From: a virus
Strand: one strand, 5' to 3'
Virus record (IMG/VR): IMGVR_UViG_3300009159_000050
Coordinates: 1 to 64,000 of that record
Length of the DNA stretch: 64,000 bases
Shown here: piece by piece, positions 6,925-41,652 of the stretch
Layout: every line of letters begins with the position of its first letter
Position numbering within the stretch: the stretch's first letter is position 1
The notes under the pieces: generated by a model
What the model was told of the DNA's origin: nothing
Seen by the model: only the letters and a program-made list of their open reading frames with translations
Database searches by the model: none
Program-made: the position numbers and the translations under genes

Positions 6925-7107
6925 TTAGATCTCCCTAACGGAAGTCTCTAGGACTATCCAACCATGAGAGACTTTCTCATCAAGGTAATCGTTAATAGAT
7001 TCCTCAGACTGGAATAATCCACCTAGGTTAGTAGATGAGTAATTTCCTTTAGGAAATTCTCCGCTCCATGATAGAACGTATTGTTTAGTAGTAGTTAATG
7101 TAGTCAT
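6925..7107 (-). CDS. hypothetical protein, paralog of 7670-7855
   Basis: near-identical protein and shared RBS context AAGAAAGGTGGTC. Confidence 0.7.
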   Translation of the reverse strand: MTTLTTTKQYVLSWSGEFPKGNYSSTNLGGLFQSEESINDYLDEKVSHGWIVLETSVREI

Positions 7108-7232
7108 TTGATGACCACCTTTCTTTTAATGTGATAGACCTTGTGTCTATCGCTTTTCTTGACCTAGGTTATTTGCCTATCTTATTTGATAGGGCTCACT
7201 AGGATTTGTTATTTAATTTTTTTGATACTGTA

Positions 7233-7261
7233 AGTATAGCACAAAAATGTCAAAAAGTCAA
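7233..7261 (-). promoter_or_regulatory. leftward SigA promoter
   Basis: TTGACT-17-TATACT with extended TG. Confidence 0.7.
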
Positions 7262-7292
7262 GTTTAGACACGGACAAATTGGACATTTTCTG

Positions 7293-7308
7293 TGTGATCT
7301 CCGTCACA
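7293..7308. promoter_or_regulatory. CRP/GlxR site
   Basis: TGTGA-tctccg-TCACA. Confidence 0.7.
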
Positions 7309-7325
7309 TTTTGGCCCGAGCAAAA

Positions 7326-7464
7326 ATGACCAGTCTTGGGCTTACCTGCTTATGACCAGTCTTAGGTTCCCCCGCTCATGACTGGTCTTAGGCTCCCCAG
7401 CTCATGACCAGTCTTGTGCATATGCGCCTATGACCATTCTGGGTGCATGCGCTCATGACCAGTC
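7326..7464. repeat. six-copy ATGACCAGTC array, 26-bp period
   Basis: copies at 7326, 7352, 7378 (ATGACTGGTC), 7404, 7430 (ATGACCATTC), 7455. Confidence 0.85.
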
Positions 7465-7487
7465 AAAATACCTCGGGCCCCAAAAAG

Positions 7488-7551
7488 TTATCCACATGAT
7501 GTAGATCACATCTTAAATCACGCTCAAGTTATCCACATGACCTACATCACA
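7488..7551 (+). promoter_or_regulatory. two DnaA boxes each fused to a CRP-like site
   Basis: TTATCCACA at 7488 and 7529, each running into CATGA-N6-TCACA. Confidence 0.6.
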
Positions 7552-7591
7552 TTTCAAAATGTCCGTTTTGTCATAGTTACTGGCTAGTAGA

Positions 7592-7613
7592 TGTCAGACC
7601 CCTCTGCTATAAT
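7592..7613 (+). promoter_or_regulatory. RecA-NDp/PafBC-type promoter
   Basis: TGTCAG-N10-TATAAT. Confidence 0.7.
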
Positions 7614-7669
7614 ACTTACATACCAAAAAACAAGAGGTAAAGAAATCCTCTAAAGAAAGGTGGTCTCAA

Positions 7670-7855
7670 ATGACTACACTAGTTACTACTAAACAATTCG
7701 TTCTATCATGGACGGGTCTCCATAACCTTAGCGGTTATACATCTTCTAACTTAGGTGGGTTGTTCTCAGATGAACAATCTATAAATGAATACCTTGATCA
7801 AAAGGTAAGCGAAGGATGGACAATCATCCTTGTATCCGTAAAGGAGATAAACTAA
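7670..7855 (+). CDS. hypothetical protein, paralog of 6925-7107
   Basis: MTTLVTTKQFVLSW...NLGGLF...INEYLDQKVSEGW. Confidence 0.7.
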   Translation: MTTLVTTKQFVLSWTGLHNLSGYTSSNLGGLFSDEQSINEYLDQKVSEGWTIILVSVKEIN

Positions 7856-8019
7856 TGAATGCTATTTATACACTTAAATCTATCTGCGGAAAGAATACTT
7901 TCTATGTAGATCCATATGATGTAAATTTTAATCCTAATGGTGCTACTTGTTGCGATAATTGCAAATCTATTTTAATCTGCCGTCAGGCATGGGACTTTCT
8001 CTATAAGGGGGTAAAGTAA
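7855..8019 (+). CDS. Cys-rich hypothetical protein
   Basis: TAATG overlap, AAGGAG RBS, CCDNC. Confidence 0.55.
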   Translation: MNAIYTLKSICGKNTFYVDPYDVNFNPNGATCCDNCKSILICRQAWDFLYKGVK

Positions 8020-8192
8020 TGAGCATTGAACTACAAGATACACTTTCTATCTGCCGTCAAATTCGTAACAATGATCGTGATAGTGGAACACACTATCTGC
8101 TAGGTTATCTATGGGCTAACACTTCAGATAAAGAAAAAGAAAGAATCTATAAACTTTTCAAAAAAGATTTTGACGAAATGGAGAATAAATAA
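8019..8192 (+). CDS. 57-aa hypothetical protein
   Basis: TAATG overlap; MSIELQDTLSIC...YLLGYLWA. Confidence 0.5.
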   Translation: MSIELQDTLSICRQIRNNDRDSGTHYLLGYLWANTSDKEKERIYKLFKKDFDEMENK

Positions 8193-8193
8193 A

Positions 8194-8295
8194 ATGGAAA
8201 AAGATATTTTCGGATTTGATAAAGCAATTAACCTTGATCATCTTAATGATGAGCAAATAAAAACTTTAGAAGAAATATTTAAAGACTACAAATAA
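8194..8295 (+). CDS. 33-aa peptide, paralog of 11792-11887
   Basis: MEKDIFGFDKAINLDHL vs MEKDLFGFEKAIQLNHL. Confidence 0.6.
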   Translation: MEKDIFGFDKAINLDHLNDEQIKTLEEIFKDYK

Positions 8296-8337
8296 ATAAA
8301 AACAAAATTTCGCAGAAATAAAAAGCTGCGTTTTTTT

Positions 8338-8499
8338 GGGTCGGGCCCCAAATGACCAGTCATAGGCGCATAGACCCATGATCAGTCATTTACGTACGTG
8401 TGATCTAATTCACATTTACGGAATGTCCGTTTTATCCCAGTTTATGGTGATAATCAACTTTACATAACATGAGCAAATGTCAGACCCCTATGCTATAAT
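8338..8499 (+). promoter_or_regulatory. regulatory cassette
   Basis: TCGGGCCCC, ATGACCAGTCAT (8352) and ATGATCAGTCAT (8378), CRP site 8399-8414, TGTCC box, TGTCAG-N10-TATAAT 8478-8499. Confidence 0.7.
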
Positions 8500-8532
8500 T
8501 CTAGGTATAAACAAAAAGAAAGGAAGTTAAAA

Positions 8533-8709
8533 ATGACTTCATTAAAAATAAAATGCATAGAGCATAAGCCTATGAAATCTGCTATCTCACAAATTGGAGA
8601 TGAGCAATTTACATTCTGCCAAGAATGTGAAAATAACATTGAGCGTTGGTATAACGATACTGACCCTGAGCGTCTTGCTATGTGGACTGACTGGAAAGTC
8701 AGCCCATAG
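8533..8709 (+). CDS. 58-aa hypothetical protein
   Basis: GAAAGGA RBS; FCQECENNIERWY. Confidence 0.55.
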   Translation: MTSLKIKCIEHKPMKSAISQIGDEQFTFCQECENNIERWYNDTDPERLAMWTDWKVSP

Positions 8710-8783
8710 TGACCAAGATCACATTCCAAATGTCCTAAATGTCCGTTTTTGGATTTGATTTTGTCAGTCCAATCTGCTAAAAT
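8708..8783 (+). promoter_or_regulatory. regulatory cassette
   Basis: AGTGA-N6-TCACA, TGTCC-N4-TGTCC, TTGATT-17-TAAAAT with TGTCAG-N10 at 8762. Confidence 0.65.
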
Positions 8784-8821
8784 AGTTATATAACAAAAAA
8801 AAGAAAAGAAGGTGACAACCA

Positions 8822-9043
8822 ATGTCAGCACAAATATACACACCATCAGCCCTATTAGAGGGAAAATACTATCGCTCAATTTCTCGCAAGATTGACGGAA
8901 TTATTCAGGAAGCAGAAATTGCTCCAGAAATTTGGTACGGAGAAAACGATACTGCTTATCGTGTTCGTGTTCGCCCTACCTATAACGGAACAATTCTTCA
9001 CGAAGATTTTTGGGCAGTCGTAGCAGTAAGAAAGGAAAACTAA
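8822..9043 (+). CDS. hypothetical protein
   Basis: AAGGTG RBS downstream of promoter. Confidence 0.6.
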   Translation: MSAQIYTPSALLEGKYYRSISRKIDGIIQEAEIAPEIWYGENDTAYRVRVRPTYNGTILHEDFWAVVAVRKEN

Positions 9044-9044
9044 T

Positions 9045-9239
9045 ATGTACAAACTCAAACTAGAAACTTTCAGCGGAGAAGTTAAAACAATTTCACTTCC
9101 GTCAAAAGGTGCAGTTGCACAATTCATCAACACTTACCCAACACAATTACCAGTTGGCGTATCCGTAAAAGTCGCTTGCGACACCCTTGGAATTACTGGC
9201 ACACTTCGTGGCAGTTTAACACTAGCAAAATCAAACTAA
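9045..9239 (+). CDS. hypothetical protein, paralog of 6617-6793
   Basis: KLKLETFSGEVKTISL...VKVACDTLGITG. Confidence 0.6.
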   Translation: MYKLKLETFSGEVKTISLPSKGAVAQFINTYPTQLPVGVSVKVACDTLGITGTLRGSLTLAKSN

Positions 9240-9256
9240 GAATAGGAAATAAAATA

Positions 9257-9463
9257 ATGACAAAAATATATCACTCTCTACAATTCGTAACTGAATTAGA
9301 CGAAACACATCCAATCTCTCAGCAACTTCTTGCACTACCTACAATAGATCAGGTCGCTATGCTTGAAGCCATGCTAAAAGAATTGCTTGCTCCACGCATT
9401 CAGTCAACACTTGATGAACTCAACGAGAACAATCACTTCGCAGTATTAAAGGTGGCAGAATAA
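9257..9463 (+). CDS. hypothetical protein
   Basis: ATG 9257 after AGGA. Confidence 0.55.
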   Translation: MTKIYHSLQFVTELDETHPISQQLLALPTIDQVAMLEAMLKELLAPRIQSTLDELNENNHFAVLKVAE

Positions 9464-9623
9464 TGAAAACTTGTTTAATAGTTAATTGTGAATCAACTGC
9501 ACTTGTATATTCTGGAATTGACGCATTCATGCTAGGTGGAATCCCTACTGAAACATATTGCTACGATTGCGCTAATGCATACAATCAAATTTCTGCACAT
9601 GTAGAAAAGTTGGTGCAACTATA

Positions 9624-9806
9624 ATGATGACTAGAAAAGACTATGTAGAAACTGCAAAAATTCTAAATGGATTTCTTGACTATATGGACCCTCACGTTTT
9701 TCAAGATTTAGTTTTTGAATTTAGCGAATGGTTTCTTTCTGACAATCCAAGATTTCATGAAGGTAAATTTTCTGAGGCTTGCTATAAAGTGGAGGTAAGT
9801 ACATGA
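9624..9806 (+). CDS. small phage protein (MTRKDY...DNPRF family)
   Basis: MTRKDYVETAKIL...DNPRFHEGKFSEAC. Confidence 0.6.
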   Translation: MMTRKDYVETAKILNGFLDYMDPHVFQDLVFEFSEWFLSDNPRFHEGKFSEACYKVEVST

Positions 9807-9933
9807 GTAGAATTTTAACAACGCTTGTGCAGCTAACTTTATTTCTTGGAGTGCTTGCTTGTTTTCGTTTAATGTGGCAAGATTTAAAAAATGATCTTGC
9901 TGAAATCAAAAACGATTTGCGAAAATAAATAAA

Positions 9934-9961
9934 AAATCCTGAGCACGATTTAAAACTGCTC
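9934..9961 (+). ncRNA. 3'-UTR H-type pseudoknot motif, copy A
   Basis: AAATC-CTGAGCAC-GATTT-AAAAC-TGCTC. Confidence 0.6.
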
Positions 9962-9974
9962 AACATTCAAAAAT

Positions 9975-10112
9975 GGGGCCCGACCCCCACGGCGTGTCGT
10001 CCACAGGTTATCCACAGGCTTTACGTTGTGATATTACTCACACCCAAATTTTGTCATATTTTGAGATTAAGTGCCTTTGAGAGTTGCTCATGTCAGCCCC
10101 ATAGTGTAGGAT
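9975..10112 (+). promoter_or_regulatory. regulatory cassette
   Basis: GGGGCCCGACC, DnaA boxes 9997 (imperfect) and 10008, CRP 10027-10042, TTGCTC-17-TAGGAT with TGTCAG-N10 at 10091. Confidence 0.65.
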
Positions 10113-10519
10113 ATTTATATCAAGTTAATTAAGAAAGAAGGAACCCCCTATGAACGAATGCAAAGTATGTTTTGCTCAGCGTATGAGTATCTCTGCAATA
10201 TCTATCAAGATCAACGAACTATGCGAGCCACACTATCGTGACTGGCAAGATGAAAAGAATATGGGTGAGTACTTTGGGTAATATGATGGAAGCCTTATGC
10301 GTTGCATGTAATGAAGATTTGCATGTAGATGGATTTTATTGTTGGTCATGTGGAATTGACACCTACTACTCAGACATGTTAGAATCAGACCTCACCCTAG
10401 ATTGGACAGAATAATATGACCCCCTATGACGACTACTATGAAACTGATATGCCTACTGCCGTGGGTTGCTACTGCAAAATAAACTATGTGTGCTCAGAAT
10501 GTAAAGGAAACTATAACTA

Positions 10520-10732
10520 ATGGAATATGAATATCTAATTACCTGCGCCTATGACGGAAACGCTCCGCATTGGAAGCAACGCTATGAAAACGAATTTGGT
10601 GCATGGGAAAACTTTTTCCTATTTACTGATTGGGGAATGGCTGATGAATACTCCACAGTTAATCTCTACACGCCCACAGGCAAGTGTTACACAAGAAACT
10701 TTTATCGTAGCGGAATGGTGGCAACAAAATGA
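10520..10732 (+). CDS. hypothetical protein
   Basis: AAAGGA RBS, in operon of small ORFs. Confidence 0.55.
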   Translation: MEYEYLITCAYDGNAPHWKQRYENEFGAWENFFLFTDWGMADEYSTVNLYTPTGKCYTRNFYRSGMVATK

Positions 10733-10876
10733 TAAAGATTGAAGCAGAAGTAATTACATGGAAGCCTAATGATAAAAATTCTTTCATTGACAATATGACT
10801 CAAGATGAGTTAGCAATATTTGAAGCAGACATACAAGACGCTATTGACGGCGTAATAGAAGATTGGAAATAATATA

Positions 10877-11182
10877 ATGGGATCAGTAACCGCACTAGGA
10901 ATTAAAGATACAGTACTTGATTTGGAAACTCAGATTCTTTATCATCTCAAGGGTAATCACTATCCTCCAGTACCTGCAGAAATGGTCGCACCATGCATTG
11001 AAGCCATTGACGCGTACTATGATGAAGATTGGGATAGAATGATTGACATGCCTATGGTTGGTAGTTTTCAGATTCTCTATAAGGGAAGCAAGCAAGCGCC
11101 TGCATGGGCTATCGTAGAACAACACCACCTATCATGGTTTATTGAGCCAGTAGCATACTCTGATGAGGAGGAGGAATCCTAA
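10877..11182 (+). CDS. hypothetical protein
   Basis: HLKGNHYPPVP...AIVEQHHL motif; acidic tail. Confidence 0.6.
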   Translation: MGSVTALGIKDTVLDLETQILYHLKGNHYPPVPAEMVAPCIEAIDAYYDEDWDRMIDMPMVGSFQILYKGSKQAPAWAIVEQHHLSWFIEPVAYSDEEEES

Positions 11183-11248
11183 TGGCAATACTATTGACTT
11201 CAGTCACAGTTATATTTGTAGTAAAGATGATTTCACAGGGCAGATAAA

Positions 11249-11482
11249 ATGAGTGCTACAATAAATGGCATGGAACTAATAAAAGCTGATGTGCTAACTG
11301 CAGATGCAATTGAGATTGGTGATCTAATCTCTTTTGATGATGATATCGTTGAAGTAATTGCTATTGATGTTGATTCTACTGGCGATGTATATAGCATTCA
11401 AGTTAGCAACGACTTTGGTGAAACACAAACAGTTGACTTTGATTTTGATGAAGAAGTTGACTGGTACGTTTATATAGACTAA
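11249..11482 (+). CDS. small acidic beta-barrel-like protein
   Basis: ADAIEIGDLI pattern. Confidence 0.5.
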   Translation: MSATINGMELIKADVLTADAIEIGDLISFDDDIVEVIAIDVDSTGDVYSIQVSNDFGETQTVDFDFDEEVDWYVYID

Positions 11483-11485
11483 AGT

Positions 11486-11555
11486 GGGGCCCGAGGCCCC
11501 TGTGAGCTATATCACATTTACGTAGGTTGATATTTTTTTCTATATATGATAGGAT
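11486..11555 (+). promoter_or_regulatory. regulatory cassette
   Basis: GGGGCCCGAGG, CRP 11501-11516, TTGATA-17-TAGGAT. Confidence 0.65.
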
Positions 11556-11583
11556 TAGAATAATCCAAACGAAAGGTCAACTA

Positions 11584-11790
11584 ATGAAAATTTATGAAGT
11601 TACTTGTATTCACTATGAAATTTGTGGCTCTACTGAAACTTTTAATGAATCAGAATATGAAATCTATGGTGATGATTTCACCTGTGCTGAATGTTTCAAT
11701 CAACTTGAAATGTTTTCTCATGGCTGGCGTGATATTGCTTCAGATCACATGATGACTCGCATGGCTGATGCGGAGATGGGAGATTTGTAA
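11584..11790 (+). CDS. Cys-containing hypothetical protein
   Basis: GAAAGGT RBS, ATG 11584. Confidence 0.55.
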   Translation: MKIYEVTCIHYEICGSTETFNESEYEIYGDDFTCAECFNQLEMFSHGWRDIASDHMMTRMADAEMGDL

Positions 11791-11791
11791 A

Positions 11792-11887
11792 ATGGAAAAA
11801 GATTTATTTGGTTTTGAAAAAGCAATTCAACTTAACCACTTAACAAAAGAACAAATTGATGAATTGTTAAAAATGCTTGAAATATAA
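11792..11887 (+). CDS. 31-aa peptide, paralog of 8194-8295
   Basis: sequence similarity; both are the last gene before a GGCCC box. Confidence 0.6.
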   Translation: MEKDLFGFEKAIQLNHLTKEQIDELLKMLEI

Positions 11888-11889
11888 GA

Positions 11890-11957
11890 GGCCGAGGCCC
11901 CATGTGACTTAGCTCACATTTAAGAGATTTGATATTTTTCCCCATATCTGGTAAGAT
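11890..11957 (+). promoter_or_regulatory. regulatory cassette
   Basis: GGCCGAGGCCCC, CRP 11903-11918, TTGATA-17-TAAGAT, leaderless ATG 11964. Confidence 0.65.
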
Positions 11958-11963
11958 TATTAC

Positions 11964-12110
11964 ATGAGCCAGAAAAAGACCCCTGAAGAATTACGTATCC
12001 TTATGGAATTACGTAGATCTAATGCTGCCTCAGCTATCCCCAACAAAAAGAAATATGACAGAAAGAAATGTCAGTCGTACCTGCTACAATTAAAGAAAGA
12101 AAGCGAGTAA
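11964..12110 (+). CDS. 48-aa basic peptide
   Basis: leaderless; ELRRSNAASAIPNKKKYDRK. Confidence 0.5.
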   Translation: MSQKKTPEELRILMELRRSNAASAIPNKKKYDRKKCQSYLLQLKKESE

Positions 12111-12115
12111 CCCCC

Positions 12116-12838
12116 ATGACCAAATTACTTAGATCAAAAGATCGCAAAGTCGCTAACCTAGTTACAACTAATGGAAAACAAGCAAGCATGGCTAATACTT
12201 TTGGCCTACCTGCAGGCAAGGCGTACTCATGCCCTGGCGCTACTAGTGTGTGCGAGAGTGTATGCTATGCAGGCAAACTAGAAAAGGTATTCCCTAGTGT
12301 AAAGAAAAACCTATTGCACAACTGGGCATTGCTCAAGGACGCAGACTTAGATACTATGCAAACCTTAATCTCAGAGATGATTGAAGAGTTTAAGACAGAA
12401 TGCGTTAAGCGTAATGCACCTATGCTATTTCGTATCCACTGGGACGGCGATTTCTTTAATGATCAGTATACACAGGCATGGAAGAATGTCATCCTTAACA
12501 ATACAGACATTCAATTCTGGGTATACACACGTGTTAATTCTGCCGCAGTAATGCTAAAGGATATTGCTAATCTATCTTTATACTATTCTACAGATAGTGA
12601 GAATAAGTCTATTGGCCTTACCCTGAAAAAAGATCATGGCGTACGTCTTGCTTACCTTGCTAAGAATTTTGCAATTGGTCAGGCAGACATGAAAGAGATG
12701 ATTGGTCGCCCTGGTGCTAAGTGTCCAGAGAATCTCAAGGCTATTCCCCTTATCTCTCAAAAGGGCTCCGCTTGCGTATCCTGCTCATTGTGCGTATACT
12801 CTAAGAGCGACATAGTATTCTCTGCAACAAAAAAATAA
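12116..12838 (+). CDS. GP88 family protein (Fe-S/radical-SAM-like)
   Basis: FGLPAG..SCPGATSVCESVCYA, FRIHWDGDF, C-terminal CxxCxxC. Confidence 0.7.
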   Translation: MTKLLRSKDRKVANLVTTNGKQASMANTFGLPAGKAYSCPGATSVCESVCYAGKLEKVFPSVKKNLLHNWALLKDADLDTMQTLISEMIEEFKTECVKRNAPMLFRIHWDGDFFNDQYTQAWKNVILNNTDIQFWVYTRVNSAAVMLKDIANLSLYYSTDSENKSIGLTLKKDHGVRLAYLAKNFAIGQADMKEMIGRPGAKCPENLKAIPLISQKGSACVSCSLCVYSKSDIVFSATKK

Positions 12839-13017
12839 AGGAGATAAATGGACATATATGTAGTCTTATCTTTCATAGGGCTATTATTGTTCCTCATGAC
12901 AAAAAAATAATGTGACCTAAATCACAGTCCAAATAGTGAGATTTTTAGGAAATGGATTTGATATTTCTTAGATTTTTTGCTACACTTAATATAGTACCAA
13001 CTACAAAGGAGAAACAA

Positions 13018-13185
13018 ATGACGGTATCAACAGCAACATACAAGGTGGGCGACCTCTACACTTCACAGAAGTCAAAGGTAACAGGAACAATCTTGGAAAT
13101 CTCACCAACCGCAAATGACACAGTTCGTGTTAAGTTAGATGTAAATGGCATGACACGCTGGACAACATGGAAGGCTAGTTCATAA
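13018..13185 (+). CDS. small SH3-like hypothetical protein
   Basis: AAGGAG RBS; promoter TTGATA-17-TACACT at 12958 with CRP 12911. Confidence 0.55.
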   Translation: MTVSTATYKVGDLYTSQKSKVTGTILEISPTANDTVRVKLDVNGMTRWTTWKASS

Positions 13186-13199
13186 CTAGTTAGACAGTC

Positions 13200-13226
13200 A
13201 TTCCTGAGCATGAATTAAAAAGGCTC
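13200..13226 (+). ncRNA. pseudoknot motif, copy B
   Basis: ATTC-CTGAGCAT-GAAT-TAAAAA-GGCTC. Confidence 0.55.
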
Positions 13227-13289
13227 AACTTAATGTCAGTCCCACCTACTATAATATAAATAACCCACCAAAGAAAAGAGAAAATAAAA

Positions 13290-13715
13290 ATGGCAACAAG
13301 AAGCAAAGCAATCTCAGTAAAGATCGCAACACCAAAGGTAATCAAGGCACTAGAAGCATCACTTGCTAAACTAGAAGCAGACTACGCATCACAAGAAGCA
13401 AATGAAGCAAAGTATCAGAAGGCGTATGAGAAGTGGAAGAAAGACCTTATTGACTATGCAGTAGCAAATATCAAAAAGGCAGAAAACTTCCGTACTAACT
13501 ATCGCTCATGGTCAAACAATCTCAACATTGATTTTGATTTAGCGGTATCAGAAAAGGATCTACCAAAAGAGCCTACTAAGGATTTTGAGACACTTCATCA
13601 CAGTAACTATCGTGAGCAGAAGCAAGAGATGGAAAACGCAATTCGTATTCTCAAGATGACAGATGAGGAAGTAGTTTCCGCATCAACTTATCAAGCGGTT
13701 GCTCGTTATCTCTAA
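13290..13715 (+). CDS. hypothetical coiled-coil protein
   Basis: downstream of TGTCAG-N10-TATAAT (13234). Confidence 0.65.
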   Translation: MATRSKAISVKIATPKVIKALEASLAKLEADYASQEANEAKYQKAYEKWKKDLIDYAVANIKKAENFRTNYRSWSNNLNIDFDLAVSEKDLPKEPTKDFETLHHSNYREQKQEMENAIRILKMTDEEVVSASTYQAVARYL

Positions 13716-13750
13716 CTAACTTAGGGGGCAGTTAAAGTCCTGAACCCTAA

Positions 13751-13777
13751 CGACCTGAGTAAGTCGCAAAACTGCTC
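13751..13777 (+). ncRNA. pseudoknot motif, copy C
   Basis: CGAC-CTGAGTAA-GTCG-CAAAAC-TGCTC. Confidence 0.6.
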
Positions 13778-13851
13778 CCCGCAAGGGTCTTTGACAAATG
13801 TCAGTGGCCAGTAGTATACTTAAACTAACCAACAAACAGAAAGAGGCCCCC

Positions 13852-14265
13852 ATGGACCAGACAGTAACAGTAGTAAATGCAACAGAAGACTTTCTTCGTG
13901 ATTCCCTAGCAAAAGCAACTCTTCGTGTTGCACAACTAGAGGAGCAGATTCAGAAAGTAACTCAGCGATCATATGTTGATTCTGCTAACAAAAACCATAT
14001 GATTGACGCAATGAAAGAATGGACCCTTAGCGAATTAGAAAACCTTTCGCTTGCACAAGAACATGCAGAAGCAATTGCAGAAATTATGGGATTTGAACTA
14101 ACAACAGAATTTGAGGTTGAAGTTACAGTTACATATGCAATTACAGTTAATGCAGTCAATGAAGAAGAAGCGCAGAACTTAATTCATGATATTGATTTTG
14201 ATTCAGTATCAGAGCCCCAAGGCGTAACTTATTTGTCATCCAGTGTTGACAGAATAGATATTTAG
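13852..14265 (+). CDS. hypothetical protein
   Basis: GAGG RBS; promoter TTGACA/TGTCAG-N10-TATACT 13791-13820. Confidence 0.6.
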   Translation: MDQTVTVVNATEDFLRDSLAKATLRVAQLEEQIQKVTQRSYVDSANKNHMIDAMKEWTLSELENLSLAQEHAEAIAEIMGFELTTEFEVEVTVTYAITVNAVNEEEAQNLIHDIDFDSVSEPQGVTYLSSSVDRIDI

Positions 14266-14279
14266 TAGGGGGCTACTAA

Positions 14280-14308
14280 TAGATCTAAGCATATCTATAA
14301 ACTGCTTA
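14280..14308 (+). ncRNA. pseudoknot motif, copy D
   Basis: TAGAT-CTAAGCAT-ATCTA-TAAAC-TGCTTA (compensatory changes in both stems). Confidence 0.6.
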
Positions 14309-14477
14309 TTCAGCTCCCGCAAAATTTGGGGCTCGGGCCCCATGTGACCAATATCACACGTGTCTTTACGAGACATTAAAAAAATGTCCGATTTGCCCCA
14401 TATTTAACTAGCCTGCCTTGCATTTGTCAGTCTATCCTGATATACTTAAATCTCAACAACAACAAGGAGAAAAACTC

Positions 14478-15494
14478 ATGGCACATGACCTAGAAATACA
14501 AAACGGAAAAACATCTTTTGCTTCTTTCCGTGAACCTGCATGGCATGGATTGGGTACCGTCTTCACTGAGGAAAAGACCACACTAGAAATGTTAGATCTT
14601 GCTAACCTTTCTAACTGGAACGTTCGTCTTGAAGATCTACCAACCCCTGCACACTTAACAAGCGACAAGGAATACCAATATGTCGTACGCACCAACCCCA
14701 CTGATAGCGCCCAGACTGATATTCTTGGTGTCGTTGGTGAACGCTATCACGTATTGCAGAATGAGGACCTATTCTCATTTGGTGATAACATCCTAGACGG
14801 CGGTGGCCGTTGGGAGACTGCTGGCTCAATCAAGGGTGGACGTGTTGTCTTTGGTGCCCTTGCACTAGAGCGTGAAACAATCCTAGACCCTAGTGGCGTT
14901 GCAGATAAGGTGAAGACCTATTTGCTCATCAACACATCACATGACGGCTCAATCGCAATTCAAGCAAGCATAACACCAGTTCGTGTTGTGTGCGCTAACA
15001 CTCTCAATCTTGCACTTAACACCACACGCAAGAAGAATGGTGTCAAGCAATCATTCAAGATTCGTCACACTCAGACTGCCAATGGTAAGGTGCAAATTGC
15101 ACGTGAGACTCTTGGCATGGCTAATAAGTACATGGACGAATTTGATCTCATGGCTAAGGCTATGATTGAGAAGGAAGTCAGTGCTAAGACTTTCTACGAT
15201 ATCATTCTTGCTGCATATCCTAAGCCAGAAAAAGATGCTAAGGGTGCCGTAAAGAAGTGGGAGAATAAAGTTGATATCATCAACGATATTTACACTGGCG
15301 AATTTAATGGCATGATTGCTGGTAATGCATGGGGTGCATTTAATGCACTTACTGAGCGCCTTGATTGGTACCGCACATCTCGCGGTGGTAACAATGAAAG
15401 CATGCTTGCAAGCGCAAGCGGATTTGACCCTGCAATCAACGCAGAGAAAAATCGTTTGCTAAAGGTTGTACAAAATACCTTGCAACTAGTATAA
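14478..15494 (+). CDS. DUF932/DUF945 (TIGR03299) phage/plasmid-like protein
   Basis: MAHDLE...REPAWHGLG...WETAGSIKGG...TSHDGS...TPVRVVCANTL...IRHT. Confidence 0.85.
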   Translation: MAHDLEIQNGKTSFASFREPAWHGLGTVFTEEKTTLEMLDLANLSNWNVRLEDLPTPAHLTSDKEYQYVVRTNPTDSAQTDILGVVGERYHVLQNEDLFSFGDNILDGGGRWETAGSIKGGRVVFGALALERETILDPSGVADKVKTYLLINTSHDGSIAIQASITPVRVVCANTLNLALNTTRKKNGVKQSFKIRHTQTANGKVQIARETLGMANKYMDEFDLMAKAMIEKEVSAKTFYDIILAAYPKPEKDAKGAVKKWENKVDIINDIYTGEFNGMIAGNAWGAFNALTERLDWYRTSRGGNNESMLASASGFDPAINAEKNRLLKVVQNTLQLV

Positions 15495-15501
15495 TAAAAT
15501 A

Positions 15502-15527
15502 ATCCTGAGCATGATATAAAACTGCTC
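15502..15527 (+). ncRNA. pseudoknot motif, copy E
   Basis: ATC-CTGAGCAT-GAT-ATAAAAC-TGCTC, 4 nt before tRNA-Asp. Confidence 0.55.
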
Positions 15528-15531
15528 GCAA

Positions 15532-15605
15532 GATCTCTTAGCTCAATTGGTTAGAGCGCTACCCTGTCACGGTAGAGGTTGCGAGTTCAAGTCTCGTAGG
15601 GATCG
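15532..15605 (+). tRNA. tRNA-Asp(GUC)
   Basis: cloverleaf; anticodon arm CTACC-CTGTCAC-GGTAG; GTTCAAGT T-loop; G73. Confidence 0.9.
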
Positions 15606-15732
15606 CAAGCGTAAATGGGGCCCCGAGGCAAAATGGTACAAAACGGACATTTAAGAAGCTAAGATAAATACTCACGGATTTTTTTATTACGAAGGGCTTG
15701 CTTTTTCCCCAGTTTTCCTGTAGAATAAATAC

Positions 15733-15894
15733 ATGAACACTACACATAAACCATACACAATACACGAACTCGTAGAAGAAATCTATGAGGACAACTTCTC
15801 GCACTTTGATTTCATGGAAAACATGAATGGTGGGGATTGCGATTGTAATCTTCATATGACTATGAATACTATCTTAAAGTATTGGGGAGAGTAA
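15733..15894 (+). CDS. hypothetical protein
   Basis: leaderless after TAGAAT 15721. Confidence 0.5.
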   Translation: MNTTHKPYTIHELVEEIYEDNFSHFDFMENMNGGDCDCNLHMTMNTILKYWGE

Positions 15895-16052
15895 TGCTAG
15901 GCTATACTAAAGAAGATTTAGATCAGATGACTAATGCTATTCAGTCTGCTATAACTACCGTGAATTCTGACGATGACCCTTGGCTACATTCAAGACTGTA
16001 TATGGCAAGCGAATTCTTACAAGGCCTATGGGCAGAAGGGTATTTTGACTAA
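15894..16052 (+). CDS. hypothetical protein
   Basis: TAATG overlaps at both ends; MLGYTKEDL...FLQGLWAEGYFD. Confidence 0.5.
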   Translation: MLGYTKEDLDQMTNAIQSAITTVNSDDDPWLHSRLYMASEFLQGLWAEGYFD

Positions 16053-16240
16053 TGTGGACTAAACATGAGTATCTTTGTACTAATTGTGATACCCTTTTTG
16101 AAATCACAACCAGCAATGACCTGGTGATTCAACCCAACTGTATCTGTGATCAGCCTCACATTATTAGGATAAACAGATATGATGTGACGCAACTCACAGA
16201 AGATCACCTTGACTCTATTGGCAAAGTTCACTACAATTAA
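16052..16240 (+). CDS. zinc-ribbon small protein
   Basis: HEYLCTNCD...PNCICD. Confidence 0.55.
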   Translation: MWTKHEYLCTNCDTLFEITTSNDLVIQPNCICDQPHIIRINRYDVTQLTEDHLDSIGKVHYN

Positions 16241-16243
16241 TAT

Positions 16244-16393
16244 ATGGACCTAAACACATTACGAGAGTACATAAAAATTCACATAATCTCATTGGAGCAA
16301 GACTTGGAATCAAACCCTGAATCTATACACGTAGTAGACCTCAATGGACAAATTGTGGCCTGTGAACATATACTAGGAGTAATCAATGAATAA
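16244..16393 (+). CDS. hypothetical protein
   Basis: leaderless after TTGACT-17-TACAAT. Confidence 0.5.
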   Translation: MDLNTLREYIKIHIISLEQDLESNPESIHVVDLNGQIVACEHILGVINE

Positions 16394-16658
16394 TCTATCA
16401 CTATCCCCTCGTCTACAAAAACTAGTAGACATGGGGGAATCAGGCACTGACATCCTACATGGGGAACTAAAAAACCTTATGTATGAAGCAGAAAAGAATA
16501 TGCTTGCTGCTCAGAACAATGAACCTTTGGCTGAGGATGAGTATGATGAGTCAGATGAGTATCATCATGGATACCTTGACGCTTTGGCAACGGTATACCA
16601 ACTAACTTACGAACTGGCATTTGCAATCTCAGATCGTGCTAAGTTGACAAACCAATAG
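16386..16658 (+). CDS. hypothetical protein
   Basis: GGAG RBS; GYLDAL motif. Confidence 0.6.
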   Translation: MNNLSLSPRLQKLVDMGESGTDILHGELKNLMYEAEKNMLAAQNNEPLAEDEYDESDEYHHGYLDALATVYQLTYELAFAISDRAKLTNQ

Positions 16659-21545: not shown

Positions 21546-22448
21546 ATGAAAGATGCAATTATTATTCATTCCCCAGAGTATGCGAACTGGGTCTTTGACC
21601 CTAAGCATCCAACGCAGGGGCGTAGATTTATGCTGGGGCATGAGCAGGTAATCCTTAACGGAAAAGACCGCAACTTAAGCATTGAAGAGCTTCTTCCAGA
21701 GGTTCCACACAGTGATGACCTATTGATATGCCACGATCCAATTTATATCCACGATGTAACTGTAAAAGGTTTATCAAATGAATGGTATGGCCAACGCCAT
21801 GATCTAGGAGACCTTGCAAAGTTATTTGTAGGTGGAACTCTTACTGCCCTTAATGCGCTACTTGAGGCAAAGACTAAGTTAGCCATTCACCTTCCAGGAG
21901 CTAAGCACCATGCCATGCGAGACCACTCAAGCGGTTTCTGCGTATTCGGTGATTTCGCTATCGCTGCTACTAAAGCAACACTGCTTGGTAAAAAAGTTGC
22001 AGTCTTTGATTGCGATGCCCATCATGGTGATGGCACTGAAGCGCTAACAAAATCTAATCCAAATATTTTGACATTTTCTGTACACCAATATGGAATCTTT
22101 CCAGGTACAGGATTGAACTCAGATTTAGATAAGAAAGCTTTTAACTTTCCTCTTGCCTCTGGAACTGATGATGAAGGATTAACTGATGCGGTTGAATCAT
22201 TTCTTAATGTCTGCCTTGATTTTAAGCCAGACTTAATCTTTATTGCTTGCGGTGCTGATGCACTAGCAGATGACCCACTTTCTGGATTAAACTACACTGT
22301 GGGTGGTTATGAAATGGCTATGCGTAGTATCCGAATGGTTTACCCAGACACACCTATACTGTTTGGAGGCGCTGGAGGCTATCTGCCAGACGACCAGACT
22401 CCACACCTGTGGGGCAAAGCATCTCTGGCTTTAGTCAAACCAATGTGA
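21546..22448 (+). CDS. histone deacetylase family (HDAC/AcuC-like) Zn-dependent deacetylase
   Basis: GAKHHA, SGFCVFGD, DCDAHHGDGT, FPGTG, GADALADDPLS, GGY. Confidence 0.9.
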   Translation: MKDAIIIHSPEYANWVFDPKHPTQGRRFMLGHEQVILNGKDRNLSIEELLPEVPHSDDLLICHDPIYIHDVTVKGLSNEWYGQRHDLGDLAKLFVGGTLTALNALLEAKTKLAIHLPGAKHHAMRDHSSGFCVFGDFAIAATKATLLGKKVAVFDCDAHHGDGTEALTKSNPNILTFSVHQYGIFPGTGLNSDLDKKAFNFPLASGTDDEGLTDAVESFLNVCLDFKPDLIFIACGADALADDPLSGLNYTVGGYEMAMRSIRMVYPDTPILFGGAGGYLPDDQTPHLWGKASLALVKPM

Positions 22449-25016: not shown

Positions 25017-25090
25017 GCGACAGTAGCTTAGTTGGTTAAAGCCCCAAACTCATAATTTGGTAATCGTAGGTTCAAGTCCTACCTGTCGCA
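25017..25090 (+). tRNA. tRNA with CAU anticodon (Met or Ile2)
   Basis: GCGACAG/CTGTCGC acceptor; CCAAA-CTCATAA-TTTGG. Confidence 0.85.
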
Positions 25091-25094
25091 CTCT

Positions 25095-25171
25095 GCACCA
25101 GTAGCCAAGTTGGTGAAGGCGTCAGTCTTATATACTGAAGATCGTAGGTTCAAGTCCTGCCTGGTGTACCA
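25095..25171 (+). tRNA. tRNA-Ile(UAU)
   Basis: TCAGT-CTTATAT-ACTGA anticodon arm; encoded CCA. Confidence 0.8.
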
Positions 25172-25172
25172 A

Positions 25173-25244
25173 GTCTCTGTAACTCAGCGGAAGAGTAGTA
25201 CCCTTCTAAGGTAAAGGTCGTAGGTTCAAATCCTACCAGGGACG
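25173..25244 (+). tRNA. tRNA-Arg(UCU)
   Basis: TACC-CTTCTAA-GGTA; GTTCAAAT T-loop. Confidence 0.8.
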
Positions 25245-25287
25245 CAGAGAGATGCTATAATGTAATGAAAGTAAAAGGGGTGTTGCG

Positions 25288-34857: not shown

Positions 34858-35157
34858 TTAATTATCTTTCTTATCTACATAATGAAATAAAGCTTCTAAT
34901 GATTCCCAGCCAATATCTTCTTTTACTTCTAAGGCTGCAAGAAAAATGTCCCATGTTTCATAAACATATTGTTTTGCTAAGACTGTTGGCTCAACTAATT
35001 CATTGTCAACTAAAAATGCAATTGGCAACCCAATGTCATTGTACTCAATAAAATCTTTAAAATATTTATCAAGCTTATAGTCCATCCATAGTTCCCCAAG
35101 GATGGCACACATTGATTCAAAGCTAGTTACGTCTTCTCCGTTGTTAGAGATTTCCAC
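34858..35157 (-). CDS. hypothetical protein, paralog of 18301-18561
   Basis: sequence similarity. Confidence 0.6.
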   Translation of the reverse strand: MEISNNGEDVTSFESMCAILGELWMDYKLDKYFKDFIEYNDIGLPIAFLVDNELVEPTVLAKQYVYETWDIFLAALEVKEDIGWESLEALFHYVDKKDN

Positions 35158-35414
35158 ATCTCACCCCATTTTTCTTTTGTCCTGTGCTTACCAAACTCCC
35201 GTGATATTTCACCATTCTCTAAGTATATACCACCCCAGACACCCCACTCTTTGCTAGATACACCGTTAGCAAAACATATTTTTTGAACTGGACATGATTG
35301 GCATAGGCTGTCTATCATTGGTCTAATAAGCTCATCGTCCTCATACCTGTCAAAAAATAAGTTTGTATCTGAGCCAAAACAAGCACTTTTATCTTTCCAT
35401 AAGTGTTGCTCCAT
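35127..35414 (-). CDS. whiB: WhiB family Fe-S transcription factor
   Basis: W...AC...FF...C.SCPV...C...GVWGG. Confidence 0.9.
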   Translation of the reverse strand: MEQHLWKDKSACFGSDTNLFFDRYEDDELIRPMIDSLCQSCPVQKICFANGVSSKEWGVWGGIYLENGEISREFGKHRTKEKWGEMWKSLTTEKT

Positions 35415-41501: not shown

Positions 41502-41575
41502 TGGAGCGAATAGCGGGAATCAAACCCGCACATTAACCTTGGCAAGGTTACGCACTATCACTATGCAATATCCGC
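41502..41575 (-). tRNA. tRNA-Gly(GCC), non-canonical D and T loops
   Basis: TAACC-TTGCCAA-GGTTA; CCA end; TTTGA T-loop. Confidence 0.7.
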
Positions 41576-41579
41576 ACTG

Positions 41580-41652
41580 CTGGTCTGGCAAGATTTGAAC
41601 TTGCGACATGGGCATTAACAGTGCCCCGCTCTGCCAGCTGAGCTACAGACCA
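41580..41652 (-). tRNA. tRNA-Asn(GUU)
   Basis: GGGCA-CTGTTAA-TGCCC; GTTCAAAT. Confidence 0.9.

What the first reader, a model, noticed from the sequence alone, without database searches (positions are those of the whole stretch)
7293..16198. Dense, helically phased CRP/GlxR sites in front of early promoters
Seen: perfect TGTGA-N6-TCACA at 7293, 8399, 10027, 11501, 11903, 12911, 14343, 16145 and 16183, plus near-perfect sites at 7495, 7536 and 8708. All fall within 9 kb and I noticed none elsewhere. A rough chance expectation, assuming ~35% GC, is below 0.1 perfect site per 64 kb. Gaps to the -35 hexamer are quantised: 10 nt (11516, 11918, 16198), 31 nt (7293 leftward, 8723, 12926) and 41 nt (10042); sites 8399 and 14343 lie further away. 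Established: this is the consensus of cAMP receptor proteins (Rv3676, GlxR). Inference: early transcription is tuned to host cAMP/energy status, or the sites titrate CRP.
Basis: partly seen in the sequence, partly recalled or inferred. Interest (0 to 1): 0.85.

Follow-up and report, generated by a model that had tools for sequence, protein, structure and literature searches.

The report
Phased CRP boxes at phage promoters
An uncultured lake phage of actinobacteria puts perfect copies of the DNA site read by CRP-type host regulators at one-helical-turn steps upstream of its presumed early promoters, so it probably borrows a host global regulator to start infection, though no binding has been tested.

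Summary
The window has 9 perfect TGTGA-N6-TCACA palindromes, all at 7.3-16.2 kb (0.15 expected), and none elsewhere in the 90-kb virus record. One correction: 7495 and 7536 carry two mismatches, a level that occurs at chance.

The record is a WhiB-encoding, integrase-free freshwater actinophage of about 105 kb. All 80 related contigs examined carry the motif: 394 perfect sites in 1.34 Mb, against 0-3 for eight control arrangements. The distance from site to -10 box is quantised at 33/44/54/64-65 nt. This holds for promoter cassettes with unrelated intervening sequence and for two core-promoter types, sigma-70-like and PafBC-like. Mismatches spare the GTG/CAC core, as reported for CRP proteins. 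No phage copy examined encodes a Crp-type domain. Of 45 unrelated viral records with dense sites, 21 encode WhiB.

Best reading (0.55): a host CRP/GlxR-type dimer acts as an upstream, class-I-like activator. Binding, cAMP dependence, transcript start sites and the host's crp gene are all untested, because the look-up tool that could have reached host genomes was closed. Earlier notes from this scan report the same feature on at least 8 other genomes. Six literature searches found no published report.

The parts
7293..7308 (.). Perfect CRP-type palindrome. It serves the leftward promoter and flanks the 26-bp iteron array.
   Evidence: There are 31 nt to the leftward -35 box.
7233..7261 (-). Leftward promoter TTGACT-17-TGnTATACT.
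   Evidence: Independent scan (10 of 12 matches, TG present); sequence.
8399..8414 (.). Perfect site, 79 nt before the -10 box of the PafBC-like promoter at 8478-8499. It is off the main phase series.
8708..8723 (.). One-mismatch site (AGTGA left half), 31 nt before the -35 box TTGATT at 8755.
10027..10042 (.). Perfect site, 41 nt before the -35-position hexamer (10084). The core promoter has TGTCAG at -28..-23.
11501..11516 (.). Perfect site that abuts a GC hairpin (11486-11500) and lies 10 nt before the -35 box TTGATA.
11527..11555 (+). Promoter TTGATA-17-TGnTAGGAT.
11903..11918 (.). Perfect site after a GC hairpin (11888-11901), 10 nt before the -35 box TTGATA (promoter 11929-11957).
12911..12926 (.). 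Perfect site, 31 nt before the -35 box TTGATA (promoter 12958-12986).
14343..14358 (.). Perfect site after a GC hairpin (14328-14341), 82 nt before the -10 box of the PafBC-like promoter 14418-14446.
16145..16160 (.). Perfect site inside ORF 16052-16240, 38 bp (centre to centre) upstream of the next site.
16183..16198 (.). Perfect site inside the same ORF, 10 nt before the -35 box TTGACT (promoter 16209-16237).
7488..7551 (+). Two 41-bp units. Each joins a perfect TTATCCACA (DnaA-box-like) to a two-mismatch CRP-like half-palindrome, upstream of the PafBC-like promoter at 7592-7613.

Best explanation
The 16-bp palindromes are binding sites for a dimeric CRP/FNR-family regulator of the actinobacterial host (the Rv3676/GlxR type). 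The phage places them on one face of the DNA helix upstream of the core promoters of its small-gene, presumed early, transcription units. The site centres fall at about -53.5, -64.5, -74.5 and -85 if transcription starts 7 nt after the -10 box. From there the bound dimer would help the host RNA polymerase start transcription, as at class I CRP-dependent promoters. The core promoters are of two kinds. One is an ordinary -35 box with an extended -10 box. The other has TGTCAG at -28..-23 with an extended -10 box, which is the layout of PafBC-dependent promoters. What is shown: the motif, its enrichment, its restriction to one region, its conservation and phasing across the family, and the absence of a phage Crp-type gene. 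What is inferred: which protein binds, that binding activates, that the genes are early, and any dependence on cAMP.
For: (1) The match to the consensus is exact and far above chance. There are 9 sites against 0.15 expected. The 80 related loci hold 394 sites in 1.34 Mb, while eight control arrangements (other spacers, swapped halves, reversed words) give 0-3. All 80 of 80 loci have at least one site.

(2) In 5 complete relatives (105-114 kb) all 3-9 sites lie within a single region of at most 14 kb.

(3) The tolerance pattern fits a CRP protein. Of 376 one-mismatch sites, 324 change positions 1, 5, 12 or 16, and the GTG/CAC core is almost never changed. The CAP residues R180, E181 and R185 read G2 and G4 (passage of PMC10187061). 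Positions 2, 3, 14 and 15 are the core and positions 4 and 13 are essential for CRP of M. tuberculosis (passages of PMC5758884). Within the N6 spacer, A is rare after TGTGA (8 of 330) and T is rare before TCACA (9 of 330).

(4) The sites are phased. The gap from site to -10 box peaks at 33, 44, 54 and 64-65 for both core types. The cassette classes have different intervening sequences. Among unique promoters, 216 of 334 strict PafBC-like and 148 of 283 strict sigma-70-like promoters have a site with at most one mismatch upstream, at those gaps. A Rayleigh test on 82 cluster-by-gap pairs peaks at a 10-bp period with R = 0.29 (about 9e-4). It gives 0.27 (about 2e-3) at 10.5 bp and 0.24-0.26 (about 4e-3 to 8e-3) at 9.5 and 11 bp. 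Periods of 8, 9, 12 and 13 bp give R = 0.09-0.13.

(5) Neither HTH_Crp_2 nor cNMP_binding is found in the record, and HTH_Crp_2 is absent from 5 complete relatives. None of 20 early ORFs has a Pfam DNA-binding domain. No integrase is found in 5 complete relatives.

(6) The host phylum is Actinobacteria. WhiB scores 42 bits, and all 153 of 153 phage records that match it are actinophages.

(7) Other phage lineages do the same. Of 45 viral records picked for dense sites and no similarity to this phage, 21 carry WhiB (9 of 14 complete ones). Eleven of those 21 have 3-5 perfect sites; in nine of them all lie within 3.5 kb, and G037 and G050 each have one outlier 4.8 and 14.5 kb away. G036, G050 and G009 share no protein with this phage at E <= 1e-5.

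(8) In M. tuberculosis, upstream CRP binding goes with activation and binding near the start site goes with repression (abstract and passages of PMC4117774).
Against: No binding data exist for any of these sites. The host is unknown below phylum level, and I could not check that it has a crp gene. Transcript start sites are not mapped, so the absolute positions are model-dependent, and they sit about 3 bp off the E. coli class I positions as I recall them. Sites 8399, 14343 and 16145, and the family-wide minor classes at gaps of 49-50 and 79-82, are off phase. Five cultured WhiB-encoding actinophages show no enrichment (0, 1, 4, 0 and 1 sites), so this is not a general actinophage trait. The related loci share ancestry, so the counts are not independent events. 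Some arrays in other phages look like iterons or operators of a phage protein: identical triple repeats in G050 and TGTGAC-N4-GTCACA arrays beside DnaA-like boxes in G009. In addition, 24 of the 45 unrelated records lack WhiB.
Confidence: 0.55

Rival explanations
1. A phage-encoded or virion-delivered dimeric DNA-binding protein with CRP-like specificity binds the palindromes. It would act as a delayed-early activator or a shut-off factor, in the manner of the operator arrays of phiC31 (conserved inverted repeats) or L5 (stoperators).
For: The composite site-plus-promoter pattern in IMG/VR is almost confined to this family: 78 of the 80 loci analysed share proteins with this phage. Most early ORFs have no known family, so an unrecognised regulator could be among them. 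A few promoters in the region lack a site (13234, 13799) and could express such a factor first. Identical repeat arrays in other phages look operator-like.
Against: No Crp-type domain is found in the record or in 5 complete relatives. No integrase is found, so an immunity repressor is unlikely. The sites lie upstream of the -35 box and do not overlap the core promoter. The same 5-6-5 palindrome recurs in WhiB phages that share no protein with this one, which a lineage-specific regulator does not explain. WhiB itself is not linked to the sites in 5 cultured phages.
Confidence: 0.2
2. Host CRP binds but does not activate. It would bend DNA, insulate neighbouring cassettes (several sites abut the GC hairpin of the upstream unit), block read-through, or delay or repress promoters.
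For: Three sites (11501, 11903, 14343) start 0-1 nt after a GC-rich hairpin that has no T run. The off-phase sites at gaps of 79-82 nt and the site at about -91.5 fit activation less well. GlxR and CRP of M. tuberculosis both activate and repress (passages).
Against: The distance is quantised to the promoter, not to the hairpin, and cassette classes without an abutting hairpin keep the same phase. Repressing CRP sites in M. tuberculosis lie close to the transcript start site.
Confidence: 0.1
3. The sites are decoys that titrate host CRP away from its regulon as the phage genome replicates.
For: There are many perfect sites, which are rarer in cellular regulons (passage of PMC10187061), and they would be multiplied by replication.
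Against: Decoys need no fixed helical phase to promoters and no restriction to intergenic promoter-proximal positions. There are only 3-9 sites per genome.
Confidence: 0.05

Closest known systems
Class I CRP-dependent promoters (E. coli CAP upstream of the -35 box; upstream activating CRP sites of M. tuberculosis, e.g. ChIP sites at -62.5 and -69.5 in Table 1 of PMC4117774)
   Same: The same 16-bp palindrome. It is placed upstream of the core promoter, in steps of one helical turn, with the GTG/CAC core kept.
   Different: The sites are on a virulent phage and are nearly all perfect consensus. The inferred centres (-53.5, -64.5, -74.5, -85) are offset by about 3 bp from the E. coli positions as I recall them. 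Many core promoters are PafBC-like rather than -35-dependent. No binding or activation has been shown.
PafBC-dependent promoters of mycobacteria (-26 element, consensus tGTCgg(N10)tA(N3)T; PMC8635444)
   Same: Seven core promoters in the region read TGTCAG-N10-TAnnnT (7592, 8478, 8762, 10091, 13234, 13799, 14425), which is the same layout (passage).
   Different: This concerns the core promoter, not the CRP-type box. A CRP-type site phased upstream of a PafBC-type core did not appear in the passages I read.
Operator arrays of temperate actinophages (phiC31 conserved inverted repeats, L5 stoperators; recalled, not checked in a call)
   Same: Many copies of one short conserved site are spread through the intergenic gaps of an early region.
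   Different: Those sites are bound by a phage repressor and overlap or follow promoters. Here no repressor, integrase or Crp-type gene was found, and the sites lie upstream at phased distances.

Membership tests
CRP/FNR-family binding site (CRP box) | 16-bp palindrome TGTGA-N6-TCACA | tested here: met
   9 perfect sites. The consensus is as given in passages of PMC5758884 and PMC10187061.
CRP/FNR-family binding site (CRP box) | Core G2/T3/G4 and their mirror positions are essential, while outer and inner flanking positions are tolerant | tested here: met
   324 of 376 one-mismatch sites change positions 1, 5, 12 or 16; 52 change the core.
CRP/FNR-family binding site (CRP box) | Bound by a CRP-family protein of the host | not testable with these tools
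   This needs EMSA or ChIP. The host genome could not be reached.
CRP/FNR-family binding site (CRP box) | The host encodes a CRP orthologue | not tested
   Only the phylum is inferred (WhiB). No paper holds Nanopelagicales together with Crp.
Class I CRP-dependent promoter | The site lies upstream of the -35 box on one helix face, so allowed positions differ by about 10-11 bp | tested here: met
   Gaps of 33/44/54/64-65 nt for two core types and several unrelated cassettes. The Rayleigh test peaks at a 10-bp period (R = 0.29) and stays above 0.24 from 9.5 to 11 bp.
Class I CRP-dependent promoter | Centres near -61.5, -71.5, -82.5 and -92.5 relative to a mapped start site (positions recalled) | tested here: inconclusive
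   The inferred centres are -53.5, -64.5, -74.5 and -85. No start site is mapped, and the RNA contigs cannot show starts.
Class I CRP-dependent promoter | Activation depends on the regulator contacting RNA polymerase | not testable with these tools
   Bench test only.
Phage repressor operator array | A phage-encoded cognate DNA-binding protein and a temperate lifestyle | tested here: not met
   No Crp-type HTH. No tyrosine or serine integrase in 5 complete relatives. No DNA-binding Pfam domain in 20 early ORFs. An unrecognised fold cannot be excluded.
PafBC-dependent promoter (core of some cassettes) | tGTCgg-N10-tAN3T with the -26 element in place of a -35 box | tested here: met
   TGTCAG lies at -28..-23 in the 8399, 8708, 10027 and 14343 cassettes. 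The consensus is from a passage of PMC8635444. This is a sequence match only.

The most novel reading that the evidence does not exclude
Several unrelated lineages of actinobacterial phages have independently wired the start of infection to host global regulators. CRP-type boxes in class-I-like helical phase would sit upstream of PafBC-type (DNA-damage alarm) or sigma-70-type core promoters. The phage would then read the host's cAMP or energy state and its DNA-damage state before committing its early programme. This would be a host-state sensor in virulent phages of the most abundant freshwater bacteria.
Probability: 0.3. Interest if true: 0.8.

Novelty: new variant of a known kind. Interest (0 to 1): 0.62.

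Why it matters
Virulent phages are usually thought to start from strong constitutive promoters read by unmodified host polymerase. Early promoters that need a host global regulator would make phage gene expression depend on host physiology. That bears on how phages behave in slow-growing, starved lake bacteria, which are the dominant freshwater actinobacteria. It would also give a sequence signature for host prediction in uncultured actinophages, and a natural set of phased CRP-site and promoter modules for testing how actinobacterial CRP activates transcription.

Tried and rejected
Searches for relatives in cultured phages. Megablast of 7000-16500 and tblastn of a 568-aa protein against the phage collection gave no match.

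Attempts to reach the host.
- The single genome-contig scan, run with the phage WhiB, returned one 4-kb contig of a 700-kb 'Saccharibacteria' MAG. That MAG's only WhiB is on this contig, so I read it as a mis-binned phage contig.
- The search for homologous proteins with WhiB listed only phage orthologues.
- The representative search and cluster look-up gave unnamed metagenomic WhiBs.

RNA evidence. Four lake metatranscriptome runs, held as contigs, lay on parts of the stretch. Contigs cannot show starts, strand or level, and DNA carry-over is possible, so I draw nothing from them about transcript start sites. Parts without cover mean nothing.

The crude intergenic test was weak. 206 of 403 sites lie in a stop-free frame of at least 60 codons, against 665 of 810 random points. 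Genes here are tiny, so I relied on reading the window instead: 8 of the 10 sites are intergenic.

RNA-hairpin or terminator reading of the palindrome: rejected. The stem is only 5 bp, the arms are invariant rather than covarying, and one-mismatch sites are not compensated.

Restriction-site reading: rejected, because phages avoid such sites rather than enrich them, and these sites are promoter-phased.

WhiB as the binding protein: disfavoured by the 5 cultured WhiB phages without site arrays.

Literature. Six searches found no report of CRP-type site arrays in actinophages or other phages. PMC3147711 is not held, so the GlxR consensus and the E. coli class I positions are recalled, not checked. 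Supplementary files were not opened. Supplementary Table S3 of PMC4117774, which gives all CRP site-to-start distances, might bear on the position comparison.

What I saw of each paper: PMC10202952, part 1 of the full text; PMC10914622, PMC6802176, PMC8635444, PMC4117774, PMC5758884, PMC3917453 and PMC10187061, passages only, plus the abstract starts shown in search listings.

Partial samples.
- analysed the 80 listed loci (L084-L163) of the 120 stretches found.
- analysed 92 loci (L209-L300); the rest of the 114 stretches were not analysed.
- The 45 records were picked from those 92 by having at least 3 sites and at most 1 protein hit to this phage.
- One search covered 11 of the 21 WhiB-positive records, namely those of at least 32 kb.

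Full report
1. THE OBSERVATION

The mean of 100 dinucleotide-preserving shuffles is 0.15, and no shuffle gave more than 2.

The window is the first 64 kb of an 89,966-b IMG/VR virus record, classed as linear and 84% complete by CheckV. The remaining 26 kb hold no further site, and the control pattern read backwards gives 0.

Allowing one mismatch adds only 8708. At two mismatches the window is at chance, with 39 found against 40.06 expected. They are, however, two copies of a 41-bp unit in which a perfect TTATCCACA overlaps the left half.

All quoted distances to a -35 hexamer were reproduced:
- 10 nt for 11501, 11903 and 16183.
- 31 nt for 8708, 12911 and, leftward, 7293.
- 41 nt for 10027.
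- 8399 and 14343 lie further away, 79 and 82 nt from the -10 box.

An independent consensus scan calls the same promoters at 7261(-), 8755, 11527, 11929, 12958 and 16209; all but 16209 also carry a TG extension before the -10 box. Eight of the ten sites are intergenic. Sites 16145 and 16183 lie in the 3' part of a 62-aa ORF, upstream of an internal promoter.

2. WHAT THE DNA IS

GC content is about 37%. The record encodes several informative proteins:
- a WhiB protein (35127-35414, minus strand, 42 bits, above Pfam's cut-off);
- a GP88-family protein;
- a DUF932 protein;
- a histone-deacetylase-like protein;
- a Pol III alpha subunit.

It also carries six tRNAs. All 153 of 153 phage records that match its WhiB are phages of Streptomyces, Rhodococcus, Mycobacterium, Gordonia or Microbacterium.

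The runs that hold the stretch are freshwater and lake metagenomes. The GP88 protein has at least 596 relatives in IMG/VR. Complete relatives are 105-114 kb, and two of them have direct terminal repeats. Five complete relatives have no tyrosine or serine integrase.

So this is a probably virulent, abundant, uncultured freshwater actinophage. The literature treats whiB as the marker of actinophages in lakes (passages of PMC6802176 and PMC10914622, and the text of PMC10202952). The host below phylum level is unknown.

3. THE SITES ARE A CONSERVED CIS-ELEMENT OF THE WHOLE PHAGE FAMILY

All 80 of 80 related loci carry at least one perfect site. Together they hold 394 sites in 1,339,794 bases. Eight control arrangements (N4, N5, N7 and N8 spacers, swapped halves, direct repeat, and two reversed words) give 0-3. 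In five complete relatives the 3-9 sites all lie in one region of 6.3-13.9 kb.

The logo from 330 unique contexts shows no conserved flanks. Inside the spacer it shows a symmetric preference: A follows TGTGA in only 8 of 330, T precedes TCACA in only 9 of 330, and the centre is A/T-rich.

One-mismatch sites are also enriched, with 376 against 48 in block shuffles. Of these, 324 alter positions 1, 5, 12 or 16, and the GTG/CAC core is almost untouched. This is the pattern expected for a CRP-type protein. CAP reads G2 and G4 through R180, E181 and R185 (passage of PMC10187061). For CRP of M. tuberculosis, positions 2, 3, 14 and 15 are the core, changes at 4 or 13 abolish binding, and its motif is degenerate at 1, 5, 12 and 16 (passages of PMC5758884).

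4. ANATOMY OF THE CASSETTES

Each small gene or gene pair is its own unit. In order, a unit has:
- a GC-rich hairpin without a T run (for example 11486-11500, 11888-11901, 14328-14341);
- the palindrome;
- sometimes ATGTCC(G) boxes;
- a core promoter with an extended -10 box (TGnTAnnnT);
- a short leader and a Shine-Dalgarno sequence.

Two core types occur. The first has a -35 box (TTGAYW) with a 17-nt spacer. The second has TGTCAG at -28..-23 followed by N10 and TAnnnT. The second type is the layout of PafBC-dependent promoters, tGTCgg(N10)tA(N3)T (passage of PMC8635444).

5. PHASING

Across the family, the gap from the end of the site to the start of the -10 hexamer peaks at 33, 44, 54 and 64-65 nt. 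Minor classes fall at 49-50 and 79-82 nt. The pattern is the same for both core types and for promoters on either side of the palindrome.

Class consensus sequences show that cassettes with the same gap can have quite different intervening DNA. The quantisation is therefore not one copied module.

Counted from the promoter side, 216 of 334 unique strict PafBC-like promoters and 148 of 283 unique strict sigma-70-like promoters have a site with at most one mismatch 20-110 nt upstream, at these gaps. The control window downstream gave 0 and 65 sites respectively; I did not look into the 65 downstream of the sigma-70-like promoters.

I clustered 406 site-promoter pairs by their transcribed sequence into 35 clusters. 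A Rayleigh test on the resulting 82 cluster-by-gap pairs peaks at a 10-bp period with R = 0.29 (about 9e-4). It gives R = 0.27 (about 2e-3) at 10.5 bp and 0.24-0.26 at 9.5 and 11 bp. At 8, 9, 12 and 13 bp it gives R = 0.09-0.13. The promoter expressions used were permissive and the clusters are related, so this is support, not proof.

If transcription starts 7 nt after the -10 box, the centres are about -53.5, -64.5, -74.5 and -84.5/-85.5. In the window, three sites are off this series: 8399 (-99.5), 14343 (-102.5) and 16145 (-91.5).

6. WHO BINDS

No phage copy examined encodes a Crp-type helix-turn-helix: neither the record nor the 5 complete relatives. No cNMP-binding domain is found in the record either. 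Twenty early ORFs have no Pfam DNA-binding domain.

If the sites help the first promoters to fire, the factor must already be in the cell. The position upstream of the -35 box, on one helix face, is that of an activator. In M. tuberculosis, upstream CRP binding goes with activation and binding near the start site goes with repression (abstract and passages of PMC4117774).

To separate a host factor from a lineage-specific phage factor, I scanned IMG/VR for two perfect sites 10-40 nt apart. Many hits are unrelated to this family, with GC from 26% to 71%. Of 45 such records with at least 3 sites and at most one protein hit to this phage, 21 carry WhiB above the Pfam cut-off, including 9 of 14 complete ones. 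For comparison, a passage of PMC10914622 counts 4,288 whiB genomes in IMG/VR, a small fraction of a collection of millions of contigs.

Eleven of these WhiB records (32-50 kb, and 43-59% GC in the four fetched) have 3-5 perfect sites each. In nine of them all sites lie within 3.5 kb; G037 and G050 each have one outlier, 4.8 and 14.5 kb away. G036, G050 and the tail of G009 share no protein with this phage at E <= 1e-5, and G051 shares about seven. The recurrence of the same palindrome in unrelated actinophages points to a common host protein.

Several results count against over-reading this:
- 24 of the 45 records lack WhiB.
- Some arrays (identical triple repeats in G050, TGTGAC-N4-GTCACA beside DnaA-like boxes in G009) could be operators of phage proteins.
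- Five cultured WhiB actinophages of 125-142 kb have only 0, 1, 4, 0 and 1 sites.
- The site-plus-PafBC-type composite is nearly confined to this family, in 78 of the 80 loci analysed.

7. WHAT COULD NOT BE DONE

The host's crp gene and regulon could not be examined. Start sites could not be read from RNA contigs. cAMP dependence is open. GlxR binding is reduced but not abolished in a cAMP-deficient strain, and actinobacterial CRPs change little on cAMP binding (passage of PMC10187061). CRP might therefore act here as a nearly constitutive helper rather than a sensor.

8. COMPARISON AND NOVELTY

The feature works like a class I CRP-dependent promoter and carries a textbook CRP box. Membership in 'CRP-regulated promoters' cannot be claimed without a binding test.

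It differs from the known cases in four ways. It sits on a virulent phage. Its copies are nearly all perfect consensus. It is repeated before about ten transcription units. It is often combined with a PafBC-type core.

Six literature searches found no description of such arrays in phages. Earlier notes of this scan describe the same feature on at least 8 other genomes, including relatives of this phage. I tested their claim about unrelated actinophages myself.

9. VERDICT

It is a new variant of a known kind. Interest is 0.62.

Noticed in passing
window 7326-7464 and 8352-8389: Six ATGACCAGTC-type near-palindromes (ATGAC..GTCAT) lie at an exact 26/26/26/26/25-bp spacing between the divergent promoters, and two more lie at 8352 and 8378. 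They are a candidate operator or iteron array for a phage protein and are distinct from the CRP-type boxes.
   Followed up: partly
window 7488-7496, 7529-7537, 10008-10016: Three perfect TTATCCACA words (DnaA-box-like; 0.94 expected, and 8 of 100 shuffles reach 3). All lie next to CRP-type or CRP-like sites in the control region.
   Followed up: partly
window 7559, 8423, 8739, 14384 (+); 15650 (-); also 7270-7290 (-): ATGTCCG(TTTT) boxes lie between the CRP-type site and the core promoter in the longer cassettes. Family-wide they peak at 0, 6, 15 and 25 nt after the site. The binder is unknown.
   Followed up: partly
window 7592, 8478, 8762, 10091, 13234, 13799, 14425: These core promoters read TGTCAG-N10-TAnnnT, the layout of PafBC-dependent (-26 element) promoters. 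13234 and 13799 have no CRP-type site upstream.
   Followed up: partly
window 15532-15606; 25017-25245; 41502-41652: Six tRNA genes (Asp, Met, Ile-tat, Arg-tct, Gly, Asn). tRNA-Asp sits inside the small-gene region.
   Followed up: no
L083 (contig of a 700-kb MAG labelled Candidatus Saccharibacteria): A 4-kb contig encodes an 80%-identical WhiB, which is the only WhiB in that MAG. It is most likely a phage contig binned into the MAG by mistake.
   Followed up: partly
L231 (26% GC, 94.7-kb record), L263 (38% GC, 71.5 kb), L260 (32% GC, 103 kb), L219: These viral contigs are unrelated, have no WhiB, and carry very dense perfect TGTGA-N6-TCACA sites (17, 10, 8 and 8 sites in 7-10 kb). Arrays of CRP-type boxes may be used by phages of other phyla too.
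   Followed up: no
L328 (tail of G009), about 13600-13900 of the locus: An array of TGTGAC-N4-GTCACA palindromes is interleaved with TTCGAAC words, right after two DnaA-box-like words, in a 54% GC WhiB phage. It looks like an origin or operator region.
   Followed up: no
window 21546-22448: The phage encodes a histone-deacetylase-family protein (Pfam E = 3.6e-52) just downstream of the small-gene region.
   Followed up: no
window 7000-16500: Contigs of four lake metatranscriptome runs lie on parts of the region at 90-99% identity, which hints that relatives are active in situ. DNA carry-over is not excluded, and no starts can be read.
   Followed up: partly
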